Below, piece after piece: positions 8,365 to 9,455 of a stretch of 64,000 nucleotides of DNA. This DNA comes from the human T2T-CHM13v2.0 reference genome, Homo sapiens. The translations under genes and the position numbers were made by a program. The stretch covers positions 22,240,001-22,304,000 of the forward strand of contig CP068257.2 in NCBI GenBank assembly GCA_009914755.4, given 5' to 3'. Under the pieces are notes generated by a model that saw only the letters and a list, made by a program, of their open reading frames with translations, was not told where the DNA came from and did no database searches. Numbering within the stretch: the first letter of the stretch is position 1; every line of letters begins with the position of its first letter.

Positions 8365-8406
<42 letters not shown>
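8365..8406. repeat. (TA)21 microsatellite at the insertion junction inside the MaLR LTR
   Basis: 'tatatatatatatatatatatatatatatatatatatatata'. Confidence 0.95.
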
Positions 8407-8408
<2 letters not shown>

Positions 8409-8786
8409 ACTGCGCCCAGCTAATTTTTGTATTTTTTGTAGAGATGGGGTTTCACCATGTTGGCCAGGATGGTCTCAACCTCTTGACCTCATGATCCACC
8501 CGCCTCAGCCTCCCAAAGTACTGAGATTACAGGCGAGAGCTACCATGCTTGGACAAGACTGACCTTTTTTAATTAGCTAATTCCCATGAAAATTATCCAA
8601 GTTGTTGCGCATATCAATAGTTCATTCCTTTTTATCACTAAGTACTATTCCATAAGTTACTTTTTTTAAAGTTTATTTTATTTTTTTCTTTTTTATTTAT
8701 AAAATAAATAAAAAATATAAAAATAAAATATGAAATAATATATATATATATATAATATAAAAAAAAATAGAATCTTTTCTTATACT
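8407..8786 (-). repeat. Duplicated composite block: partial Alu (8407-8554, antisense) plus ~230 bp of non-Alu flank. It is a paralogue of 13452-13766.
   Basis: The Alu/flank junction is identical in both copies: '...ccatgc(t/c)tgg(a/c)c|aagac(t/g)gaccttttttaa(a)ttagctaat(t/g)ccca...catatcaatagttcattcctttttatcactaagtactattcca(t/c)aagtta...'. Identity is ~90%. The A copy has an extra AT-rich insertion at 8700-8760. Confidence 0.8.
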
Positions 8787-8907
8787 CCGCCTCCTGGGTT
8801 CAAGTGATTCTCCTGCCTCAACCTCCCAAGTAGCTGGGATTACAGGCATCCGCCACCACACCTGGCTAATTTTTTGTATTTTTAGTAGTGATGGGGTTTC
8901 ACCATGT
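8787..8907 (-). mobile_element. Second partial Alu fragment (antisense, middle portion only)
   Basis: 'ccgcctcctgggttcaagtgattctcctgcctcaacctcccaagtagctgggattacaggcatccgccaccacacctggctaattttttgtatttttagtagtgatggggtttcaccatgt'. Confidence 0.85.
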
Positions 8908-9455
8908 ATGTATGGGAGTTTATATATATCCTATTAGTTCTGTCCCTTTAAGAGAACCCTGACTAATACAATGAGTATGCTGCCAGCATGAGCTAGTGTA
9001 ATTAAATAAATAAGATTAATGTGACACAAGAAGCCTTTAAAACTATTTTATCAAACACGTGACATATTTATATTTTCTACTGCAGGAAGCAAATGAAATA
9101 ACACTTGTTTACCAAGAAATTGTTACAGGATATATGTATCATTCAGGAAGTAGATGTTCAAAAAAATTAATGTTCTTCTTGAATACTAATAAATTCAAGA
9201 TTTTTAGAAATGTACATTCAGGTTTGTGAGGAATATGACAATCTCCAAAATTATGATTGAAATTCTCTGATACCAGAAGCTTCTCCCATTCAAATGATAT
9301 TTCACATACAGCACATAGCCTAGGGCAAGGCCTGGAAAGTGAATTCTTCTCAGCAACTCTTGCTAGTTGTTTGCTTGATGTCTCCAAATAACATATGTAA
9401 GTAGTTTTCTTTTTATTTTAATCTTCATACCTACAAAAATATATTTTCTTGATCA

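What the first reader, a model, noticed from the sequence alone, without database searches (positions are those of the whole stretch)
8365..8920. A composite 'partial Alu + unique flank' block is duplicated 5 kb away and inserted into the TA-rich 3' end of a MaLR LTR
The MaLR LTR at 8040-8970 is cleanly split at its own 'cttatata' motif. Its last ~50 bp (tatatatatcctattagttctg...ccctgactaataca) resume at 8921. The ~550 bp in between is not a simple retrotransposon insertion. It consists of the following pieces:
- a (TA)21 tract;
- a 5'-truncated antisense Alu;
- ~230 bp of non-repeat sequence;
- another Alu fragment.
The Alu-to-flank junction and the flank itself are ~90% identical to 13452-13766. 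There, a full antisense Alu sits directly 3' of a different, intact MaLR LTR. The shared junction means the block was copied as a unit after the Alu inserted; these are not two independent Alu insertions. This looks like a small duplicative transposition, template switch or non-allelic gene conversion between two repeat-rich sites. The A copy has since gained an extra AT-rich insertion (8700-8760) and a second Alu fragment.
Basis: seen in the sequence. Interest (0 to 1): 0.5.

Follow-up and report, generated by a model that had tools for sequence, protein, structure and literature searches.

The report
Old Alu–L1 patch copied into LTR
About 300 bp spanning the junction between an Alu and an ancient L1 fragment was copied from 5 kb away into the TA-repeat of an old solo LTR, with a piece of a second Alu, which looks like an ordinary fossil of break repair and not a new kind of element.

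Summary
Window 8414-8713 aligns to 13455-13752 at 88.4% over 302 bp (E 3e-106), and 8760-8786 aligns to 13740-13766. The match runs unbroken across the Alu 5' end into non-Alu flank. The flank has no third copy in the window.

Three corrections:
- The first Alu piece keeps the Alu 5' end (positions 1 to about 150). It lacks the right monomer and poly-A, so it is 3'-truncated, and retrotransposition does not produce that.
- About 100 bp of the "unique" flank is an ancient L1 ORF2 3' fragment.
- The second Alu piece (positions 97-218) is cut at both ends and differs from the Alu at the second site at subfamily-diagnostic positions. It is not a later retrotransposition.

The host LTR is a solo MaLR LTR (7988-8970) with its own 5-bp target-site duplication, ATGAG. 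The block sits inside its native TA run, now a pure (TA)21.

Best reading: a non-retrotranspositional patch inserted at a break about 25-45 million years ago. DNA template switching is slightly favoured because the donor is 5 kb away in the same orientation. The main rival is a patch made from spliced RNA, because the flank/second-Alu junction reads AG|GT joined to a (Y)nAG| site.

No primate genomes or RepeatMasker were available. This is a new member of a known kind, of low to moderate interest.

The parts
7983..7987 (+). Left 5-bp target-site duplication (ATGAG) of the solo MaLR LTR
   Evidence: Read directly; the same pentamer recurs at 8971-8975.
7988..8364 (+). MaLR LTR, left part. It starts TGTGATAGTTAA, has AATAAA at 8357-8362 and ends ...CTTA before the TA run.
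   Evidence: Aligns along its length to a MaLR consensus recalled from memory. Also an 81%/58-bp match to the LTR at site B.
8365..8406 (.). (TA)21, 100% pure; an expanded form of the LTR's native TATATA run. Site of the insertion.
   Evidence: Tandem Repeats Finder. Folds into a perfect 19-bp hairpin, -10.4 kcal/mol. In the consensus alignment the break falls inside CTTATATA|TATATACATCC.
8407..8553 (-). A1: Alu positions about 150 to 1 (left monomer plus A-rich linker). It keeps the Alu 5' end and lacks the right monomer and poly-A. Copied from the Alu at site B.
   Evidence: Match to Alu consensus. Sub-threshold Metazoa_SRP hit at 8439-8553 on the minus strand. 88.6% identical to the site-B Alu, with 8 shared derived states against 16 private ones.
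8554..8784 (-). Copied flank. 8557-8653 is an ancient L1 ORF2 3'-end fragment, sense on the minus strand. 8714-8759 is a 46-nt AT-rich expansion found only in copy A. 8760-8784 is the end of the homology with site B.
   Evidence: 91.6% identity to 13596-13752. L1 evidence: minus-strand translation ME*YLVIKRNELLICATTW; BLASTP E 6e-4 against the window's own L1 ORF2 C-terminus, which matches PDB 8sxt at E 5.5e-88; z = 18.5 against a recalled L1M consensus. AT-rich array.
8785..8907 (-). A2: Alu positions 218 to 97, cut at both ends, from a different Alu than the one at site B. 8785-8786 (CT) is shared with the site-B sequence, a 2-nt microhomology.
   Evidence: Metazoa_SRP hit at 8762-8866 on the minus strand. 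Differs from the site-B Alu at diagnostic positions 128, 153 and 163; only 3 shared derived states against 17 private.
8908..8920 (.). 13-nt filler ATGTATGGGAGTT of unknown origin, between A2 and the resumed LTR
   Evidence: Absent from the recalled MaLR consensus. Unique in the window. An 11-mer overlap with 13820-13830 on the opposite strand is not significant.
8921..8970 (+). MaLR LTR, right part (TATATATATCCTATTAGTTCTG...CCCTGACTAATACA)
8971..8975 (+). Right 5-bp target-site duplication (ATGAG) of the solo LTR
12816..13262 (+). Second, uninterrupted MaLR-type LTR upstream of the donor locus
   Evidence: it shares only 58 bp at 81% with the LTR at site A.
13306..13595 (-). Site-B Alu: complete Alu with its poly-A (poly-T on the + strand). 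Donor, or sister of the donor, of A1. No recognisable target-site duplication.
   Evidence: (positions 1-289, 85.5%), and Metazoa_SRP hits.
13596..13766 (-). Donor flank. 13605-13694 is the L1 ORF2 3'-end fragment. Homology with copy A ends at 13766. On the minus strand that end reads ctaat...tgttttgttttAG|TCTAAG, which looks like a splice acceptor.
   Evidence: Acceptor weight-matrix score 3.0 bits, in the top 1.2% of all window positions and the top 16% of AG sites.

Best explanation
Copy A is a secondary, non-retrotranspositional patch. An AluS-type element inserted into an old L1 ORF2 fragment at site B. Roughly 25-45 million years ago, a break or stalled fork arose in the hairpin-prone TA run near the 3' end of a solo MaLR LTR, 5 kb away.

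That lesion was healed by copying about 310 bp of site B: Alu positions about 150 to 1, plus 170 bp of adjacent flank, in the same orientation. A 122-bp internal fragment of another Alu and 13 nt of filler were joined on. The joints used 0-4 nt of microhomology (CT at the flank/Alu joint, possibly ATGT at the right joint).

I favour DNA-templated synthesis with template switching (MMBIR/FoSTeS or SDSA-like) over an RNA template, but only slightly. The second Alu fragment may instead be the remnant of a 5'-truncated Alu that already sat in the TA run. In that case its 3' end was replaced by the patch.

Later, the TA run expanded or stayed pure at (TA)21, and an AT-rich motif inside the copy expanded by 46 nt.

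Shown: the copy relationship, its boundaries, the truncations, the solo-LTR host and the different origin of the second Alu.

Inferred: the break, the copy direction B to A, the template chemistry, the single-event assumption and the date.
For: - Shared Alu/flank junction with a continuous match of 88-92%.
- The flank is unique to these two sites in the window.
- The two L1 pieces are far more alike (91.6%) than either is to the recalled L1 consensus (about 70%), so this is one copy event.
- Site B has the whole Alu with poly-T while copy A has only positions 1 to about 150. Copy A therefore cannot be the donor.
- Neither Alu piece in copy A has a 3' end or poly-A, so target-primed reverse transcription is excluded.
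- The host LTR is intact apart from the block and has its own target-site duplication, so the block is an insertion.
- The target is a perfect (TA)21 hairpin-former.
- The donor lies 4.9-5.1 kb away in direct orientation, as expected for local template switching.
- There is a 2-nt overlap CT at 8785-8786 and a 13-nt filler.
- The closest published phenomena describe the same anatomy: Alu fragments cut at both ends, no poly-A, co-inserted non-Alu sequence (PMC5402677), and break 'patches' with microhomology and filler (PMC5110952).
Against: - A DNA route needs two separate templates and three joints, whereas one spliced RNA would explain the whole insert.
- The flank/second-Alu joint coincides with AG|GT in the Alu consensus and with a pyrimidine-rich ...AG| in site B on the same strand.
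- The source of the second Alu fragment was not found. The best window matches reach 87%, no better than expected for unrelated same-subfamily Alus.
- The left joint, (TA)n to Alu position about 150, shows no microhomology.
- TA sequence on both sides of the block could hide a target-site duplication.
- The site-B Alu has no recognisable target-site duplication, and L1 continuity across it is not significant (z 1.7). Site B is therefore not proven to be the original insertion site; a third, unsampled donor is possible.
- No outgroup genomes could be examined.
Confidence: 0.5

Rival explanations
1. RNA-derived patch, of the endonuclease-independent / non-classical Alu insertion / class 2 templated-insertion type. 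A minus-strand Pol II transcript was spliced from a sense-Alu exon (donor GAG|GT at Alu position 218) to a cryptic acceptor at 13765/13764. It ran on through the L1 fragment into the site-B Alu. An internal fragment of about 430 nt was reverse-transcribed and used to fill a break in the (TA)n tract of the same transcription unit, 5 kb downstream.
For: - The joint reads ...GGAGGCGGAG|TATAAG. The Alu consensus continues with GT, and site B has ctaat(N17)tgttttgttttAG|TCTAAG on the same strand.
- The acceptor is in the top 1.2% and the donor in the top 2% of window positions, so the joint chance is about 1e-3 to 1e-2.
- The whole insert is collinear with one RNA, and both Alus and the L1 piece are sense on that strand.
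- There is no poly-A and no clear target-site duplication, both Alu pieces are cut, and non-Alu sequence was co-inserted. [quoted passage not shown]
- Sense-Alu exons exist: 13% of Alu exons (PMC2394776).
Against: - The donor is weak (GTTGCA, 0.5 bits) and the acceptor only middling among AG sites (top 16%).
- The pattern was noticed after the fact.
- A 2-nt AG microhomology explains the same joint.
- Published RNA-derived patches come from all over the genome, so a donor only 5 kb away is unexpected unless there is a preference for transcripts made nearby, which is not established.
- The donor Alu exon was not found in the window.
- No evidence of transcription is available. ORF and Pfam scans gave no gene context.
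Confidence: 0.3
2. Copies A and B both descend from a third locus outside the window, or the block belongs to a low-copy dispersed or segmentally duplicated family. In that case the 5-kb spacing is incidental.
For: - The site-B Alu lacks a recognisable target-site duplication.
- L1 continuity across it is not significant.
- Only 64 kb could be searched. Other small local duplications lie nearby (5161-5466 with 6756-7055, and 6661-6740 with 7074-7153).
Against: - Two descendants of a distant donor landing 5 kb apart in the same orientation is improbable.
- No other copy occurs in the window.
- The scan of metagenome contigs returned only a chance 22-mer in a bacterial contig, and the viral scan found nothing. 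Neither collection holds primate DNA, so these are uninformative.
Confidence: 0.1
3. A larger ancient segmental duplication or non-allelic gene conversion between the two MaLR/Alu-rich sites, later eroded down to the 300 bp that can still be recognised.
For: - Both sites hold a MaLR-type LTR in the same orientation.
- TTATATA is present both at the LTR break and just upstream of the site-B Alu poly-T.
Against: - The block sits inside a solo LTR whose two ends and 5-bp target-site duplication are intact, so the surroundings were not co-duplicated.
- The two LTRs share only 58 bp at 81%, and the block occupies non-equivalent positions relative to them.
- Homology ends abruptly at both edges.
- Gene conversion needs flanking homology, which is absent.
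Confidence: 0.04
4. Two independent Alu insertions next to two unrelated L1 fragments, with the similarity due to chance or repeat content.
For: Both components are high-copy repeats. The Alu part alone is no closer to the site-B Alu (88.6%) than to some other Alus (up to 90.9%).
Against: - The junction is identical and the flank is 91.6% identical over about 155 aligned bp, E 1e-53.
- Independent old L1 copies would be about 50-60% alike, given about 70% identity to the consensus.
- A1 is 3'-truncated.
Confidence: 0.01

Closest known systems
Non-classical (endonuclease-independent) Alu insertions, NCAI (Srikanta et al. 2009, as summarised in PMC5402677)
   Same: Alu fragments cut at the 3' end, or at both ends. 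No poly-A, no L1 endonuclease site and no clear target-site duplication. Non-Alu sequence (2 bp to 2 kb) is co-inserted. Interpreted as filling a double-strand break.
   Different: Here the Alu piece and its co-inserted sequence are demonstrably a copy of a specific genomic Alu with its upstream flank, 5 kb away. A Pol III Alu transcript would not contain that flank. There are two Alu pieces from different sources. No deletion at the target can be shown. An RNA origin is unproven.
Class 2 templated sequence insertions (Onozawa et al. 2014/2015; review PMC5110952)
   Same: The donor is left intact. The patch is a few hundred bp. There is no poly-A, no target-site duplication and no TTTT/A site. 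The joints show microhomology and non-templated filler. Donors include intergenic or intronic sequence and spliced cDNA.
   Different: Those events are defined as polymorphisms or experimental events with donors scattered over all chromosomes. This one is ancient (about 9-12% diverged), probably fixed, and its donor is local (5 kb).
Templated insertions from replication-based template switching (FoSTeS/MMBIR), including Alu/Alu-mediated rearrangements (PMC6071635)
   Same: Nearby templates, direct orientation, short microhomologies, more than one template segment, and a start at a structure-prone sequence.
   Different: It is not attached to a copy-number change or larger rearrangement. The size is small, and only one of the two templates has been located.
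L1-mediated chimeric retrocopies and 5' or 3' transduction
   Same: A composite of repeat and flanking sequence that moved as one unit.
   Different: The hallmarks are missing: no poly-A, no 3' end of any element, and no A-rich target-site duplication.

Membership tests
Classical target-primed (TPRT) Alu insertion | Intact 3' end with a poly-A tail | tested here: not met
   A1 covers positions 1 to about 150 and A2 covers 97-218. Neither reaches position 282 or has an A-tail.
Classical target-primed (TPRT) Alu insertion | Flanking target-site duplication and a TTTT/AA-type nick site | tested here: inconclusive
   TA repeats lie on both sides ((TA)21 on the left, TATATATAT on the right). This could be a split native run or a duplication. 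The site CTTATA/TATA is not the TTTT/AA consensus.
Non-classical Alu insertion (NCAI / endonuclease-independent) | 3'-truncated Alu fragment without poly-A | tested here: met
   criteria taken from PMC5402677.
Non-classical Alu insertion (NCAI / endonuclease-independent) | Non-Alu sequence inserted together with the Alu fragment | tested here: met
   231 bp of flank plus 13 nt of filler.
Non-classical Alu insertion (NCAI / endonuclease-independent) | No target-site duplication; often a deletion at the target | tested here: inconclusive
   The TA run hides any duplication. Against the recalled MaLR consensus no deletion is evident, but no empty allele is available.
Non-classical Alu insertion (NCAI / endonuclease-independent) | Alu RNA used as the template | not testable with these tools
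   The splice-like joint is suggestive only.
Class 2 templated sequence insertion | Donor sequence present and intact elsewhere in the genome | tested here: met
   Site B at 13455-13766 is intact.
Class 2 templated sequence insertion | End-joining signatures at the joints (microhomology, non-templated bases) | tested here: met
   CT overlap at 8785-8786; 13-nt filler at 8908-8920.
Class 2 templated sequence insertion | Presence/absence polymorphism in humans | not testable with these tools
   No population data. A 9-12% divergence argues for an old, fixed event.
MMBIR/FoSTeS templated insertion | Template close by on the same chromosome | tested here: met
   The donor is 4.9-5.1 kb away in direct orientation.
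MMBIR/FoSTeS templated insertion | Microhomology at every switch | tested here: inconclusive
   2 nt at the middle joint and a possible ATGT at the right joint. None is visible at the left joint, which the TA expansion obscures.
Segmental duplication | At least 1 kb at 90% identity or more | tested here: not met
   About 340 bp of homology at 88-92%.
Non-allelic gene conversion | Homology flanking the converted tract on both sides at donor and acceptor | tested here: not met
   The acceptor is LTR sequence with no match to the surroundings of site B beyond TTATATA. Homology ends abruptly.
MaLR (ERVL-MaLR) solo LTR, the host | TG...CA termini, 5-bp target-site duplication, AATAAA near the 3' end, similarity to MaLR consensus | tested here: met
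   TGTG at 7988 and ...TACA at 8970. ATGAG/ATGAG duplication. AATAAA at 8357-8362. Exact 19-mer terminus. Alignment to a consensus recalled from memory; no Dfam or RepeatMasker was available.
L1 ORF2 3' end, the identity of the flank | Similarity to the L1 ORF2 C-terminal coding sequence | tested here: met
   BLASTP E 6e-4 against the window's own L1 copy, which matches PDB L1 ORF2p at E 5.5e-88. z 18.5 and 16.7 against a recalled L1M consensus. Pfam, PDB and the large protein database gave nothing for the 36-41-aa fragment.

The most novel reading that the evidence does not exclude
The whole insert is one cDNA-like copy of a spliced, minus-strand local transcript: a sense-Alu exon whose donor is at Alu position 218, joined to a cryptic acceptor in the L1 fragment at 13764. 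This copy patched a break in a (TA)n tract of the same transcription unit, 5 kb downstream. It would be a fossil, tens of millions of years old, of RNA-templated break repair in the germline that used the locus's own nascent transcript.
Probability: 0.25. Interest if true: 0.45.

Novelty: new member of a known kind. Interest (0 to 1): 0.25.

Why it matters
It matters little on its own. It is a neutral, intergenic or intronic scar. It is, however, a clean worked example of how composite 'repeat + flank' blocks arise without retrotransposition, and of a long pure (TA)n tract marking an old break site.

For annotation, it shows that Alu fragments lacking their 3' ends should not be read as truncated retrotranspositions.

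If the RNA route were confirmed, it would add an evolutionary example of RNA-derived break patching that draws on a nearby transcript.

Tried and rejected
- **Circular or rolling-circle copy of site B alone.** The two Alu pieces overlap at positions 97-150, which suggested this. I rejected it because the second fragment differs from the site-B Alu at diagnostic positions 128, 153 and 163, and at the CpG at 139/140.
- **The two MaLR LTRs as the 5' and 3' LTRs of one provirus.** Rejected: the LTR at site A has its own ATGAG target-site duplication.
- **Source of the second Alu fragment.** No window Alu shares private variants with it. The best identities are 87.4% (1479-1596) and 87.0%.
- **L1 continuity across the site-B Alu, to prove site B is the original insertion site.** Only an 18-nt collinear match, z 1.7, not significant.
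- **Origin of the filler.** The 11-mer CATACATACAT also lies 54 bp beyond the site-B flank on the opposite strand, but E is 0.21 and the sequence is microsatellite-like.
- **Tool identification of the L1 fragment.** Pfam gave 0 hits. PDB with the 36-aa fragment gave 0 hits.
- **Orthologues or extra copies.** Four exact-protein look-ups of local ORFs found nothing. The metagenome scan gave one chance hit in a bacterial ribosomal-protein contig. The viral scan gave 0 hits.
- **Gene context or transcribed strand.** ORFs of 90 aa or more, and Pfam, gave nothing useful.
- **DNA comparison with the window's young L1.** The flank is too diverged from it.
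Full report
**What is there.** The window is primate-type DNA: 37.5% G+C and about 22 Alus in 64 kb. 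Rfam then supported them independently as 7SL-derived. It gave sub-threshold Metazoa_SRP hits on the minus strand at 8439-8553, 8762-8866 and 13320-13461.

**The host LTR.** The finding lies inside a solo MaLR LTR.
- It begins TGTGATAG at 7988 and ends ...CTGACTAATACA at 8970.
- It is bracketed by a perfect 5-bp target-site duplication, ATGAG, at 7983-7987 and 8971-8975.
- A 19-mer of the MaLR terminus that I recalled matches exactly at 8952-8970, against 0.02 matches expected by chance.
- The LTR with the block removed aligns along its length to a recalled MaLR consensus. The break falls inside the native CTTATATA|TATATACATCC run.

**Anatomy of copy A on the + strand.**

| Coordinates | Content |
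|---|---|
| 8365-8406 | (TA)21, 100% pure |
| 8407-8553 | Antisense Alu, positions about 150 to 1 |
| 8554-8784 | Non-Alu flank |
| 8785-8907 | Antisense Alu, positions 218 to 97 |
| 8908-8920 | 13 nt of unmatched filler |
| 8921-8970 | The LTR resumes |

**The duplication is real.**
- 8414-8713 matches 13455-13752 at 88.4% over 302 bp, E 2.6e-106.
- The flank alone gives E 1e-53, and 8760-8786 matches 13740-13766.
- By part: Alu 88.6%, flank 91.6%, tail 92.6%.
- The alignment runs unbroken across the Alu 5' end.
- With Alus masked, the flank has no other partner in the window.
- At site B the Alu is complete with its poly-T (13306-13595). It lies 43 bp after a different MaLR-type LTR, 12816 to about 13262.

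**Corrections that change the reading.**
1. The first Alu piece keeps the Alu's 5' end and lacks its right monomer and poly-A. It is therefore 3'-truncated, which target-primed reverse transcription does not produce.
2. The flank is not unique sequence.
   - Its minus strand translates to K*LME*YLVIKRNELLICATTWIIFMGIS.
   - This aligns to the MEYYAAIKNDEFMSFVGTWM motif of the window's own young L1 copy near 23996(-), pairwise BLASTP E 6e-4. That L1 copy matches solved human L1 ORF2p at E 5.5e-88.
   - Against an L1M-type ORF2 3' consensus recalled from memory, both copies align over about 95 bp with z = 18.5 and 16.7.
   - So 8557-8653 and 13605-13694 are an ancient L1 fragment, sense on the minus strand like the Alus.
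The two L1 pieces are 91.6% alike but only about 70% like the consensus, and they share the exact Alu junction.
3. The 46 nt found only in copy A (8714-8759) lie within a low-complexity tandem array. They complete an imperfect AT palindrome (z -2.4). This is most simply in-place expansion.
4. The second Alu piece is cut at both ends and differs from the site-B Alu at subfamily-diagnostic positions 128, 153 and 163. The CpG at 139/140 decayed in opposite directions in the two.
   - Second piece against the site-B Alu: 3 shared derived states against 17 private ones.
   - First piece against the site-B Alu: 8 shared against 16 private.
   - The second piece therefore comes from another Alu, and a permuted or rolling-circle copy of site B alone is rejected.

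**Direction and age.** Site B holds the whole Alu and copy A only half of it. Copy A therefore cannot be the donor. The donor is site B or an unsampled sister locus. The site-B Alu has no recognisable target-site duplication, and L1 continuity across it is not significant. I therefore cannot prove that site B is the original insertion site. The Jukes-Cantor distances are 0.089 for the flank and 0.124 for the Alu part. From general knowledge of primate neutral divergence, these place the copy very roughly 25-45 million years ago, not long after the Alu inserted. This date is an inference.

**Mechanism.** Classical retrotransposition is excluded: there is no 3' end and no poly-A in either Alu piece. 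Gene conversion and segmental duplication fit badly. The host LTR and its target-site duplication are intact, homology ends abruptly, and there is no flanking homology. What remains is a patch inserted at a break or stalled fork in the LTR's TA run, which folds into a perfect hairpin.

Two template chemistries fit.
- **DNA template switching.** This is favoured by the donor being only 5 kb away in the same orientation. It is also favoured by the 2-nt CT overlap at 8785-8786 and by the filler. It needs two templates.
- **An RNA-derived patch.** This is favoured by the flank/second-Alu joint. On the minus strand it reads GGAGGCGGAG|TATAAG. The Alu consensus continues with GT, and site B reads ctaat...tgttttgttttAG|TCTAAG.
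  - With rough weight matrices recalled from memory, the acceptor is in the top 1.2% and the donor in the top 2% of window positions.
  - The whole insert would then be one spliced RNA fragment.
  - Against it: both sites are mediocre among AG and GT sites, the pattern was noticed after the fact, and a random RNA donor would not be expected 5 kb away.
- **My estimate.** About 50% DNA-templated, 30% RNA-templated, and the rest a third donor or multi-step histories.
- **A variant.** The second Alu piece may be the remnant of a resident 5'-truncated Alu whose 3' end was replaced by the patch. This is compatible with either chemistry.

**Comparison with what is known.** The anatomy matches published non-classical Alu insertions. 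Those are cut at the 3' end or both ends, have no poly-A or target-site duplication, and carry 2 bp to 2 kb of co-inserted non-Alu sequence (PMC5402677). It also matches class 2 templated sequence insertions, which are break patches with microhomology and filler and whose donors include spliced cDNA (PMC5110952). A local donor and serial switches are typical of replication-based template switching (PMC6071635). The differences are the local donor, the two Alu sources, the great age and the unproven RNA origin. This is a new member of a known kind.

**Limits.** No primate genomes, Dfam or RepeatMasker, or transcript data were available. Attempts to reach outside sequence failed. The Alu, MaLR and L1M consensus sequences and the splice matrices were recalled from memory. 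Their strong, specific matches to the window are tool results, but the subfamily names are not established.

Noticed in passing
window 5161-5466, 6661-6740, 6756-7055, 7074-7153: 6756-7055 is an inverted copy (82% over 306 bp) of 5161-5466. It is bracketed by an 80-bp direct repeat, 6661-6740 and 7074-7153 (87.5%). Both copies carry an exon-like core: a pyrimidine tract plus AG, then 47 nt, then GTAAGAAAT. The divergence is similar to that of the A/B pair, and the structure lies only 1-2 kb left of the LTR. I did not resolve whether this is a dispersed repeat or a second local template-switch scar.
   Followed up: partly
window 3215-3431 (+): This Alu stops at about position 219 with no poly-A, yet it is bracketed by the direct repeat AATTCCTTGAA / AATTCCATGAA. 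That resembles the published 'internal priming' class: target-site duplications but no A-tail. It ends at nearly the same Alu position as the second Alu fragment of the finding.
   Followed up: partly
window 13276-13625: The complete Alu at site B has no recognisable target-site duplication, which is unusual for an AluS-age insertion. It may reflect a deletion at insertion or a recombinant history.
   Followed up: partly
window 8904-8914 (-) and 13820-13830 (+): The 11-mer CATACATACAT, which overlaps the unexplained filler, also lies 54 bp beyond the end of the site-B flank on the opposite strand, and again at 25227. It is microsatellite-like with E 0.21, so probably chance.
   Followed up: yes
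window 8674-8730: The extra AT-rich bases found only in copy A complete an imperfect palindrome of about 26 bp with the T-rich stretch to their left (-15 kcal/mol, z -2.4). This could be fold-back synthesis or simply AT-rich composition.
   Followed up: partly
window 3746-3947: A tandem duplication of a unit of about 100 bp, 94% identical.
   Followed up: no
window 23617-24305 (-), 46188-46872 (+), 37626-38141: Three L1 3' ends. The copy at about 24 kb still encodes a nearly open ORF2 C-terminus that matches human L1 ORF2p structures at E 5.5e-88.
   Followed up: partly
window 15709-16083, 17564-17933, 54826-55188 (-): A three-copy, non-Alu dispersed repeat of about 370 bp, 72-80% identical between copies. 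Its family was not identified.
   Followed up: no
window 4839-5009 and 35140-35295; ORF-rich, apparently G+C-rich stretches at 4204-4976 and 34548-35272: Two stretches 30 kb apart share 71% identity over 173 bp and carry long ORFs with no Pfam match. They may be paralogous CpG-island or first-exon regions, or a repeat.
   Followed up: partly
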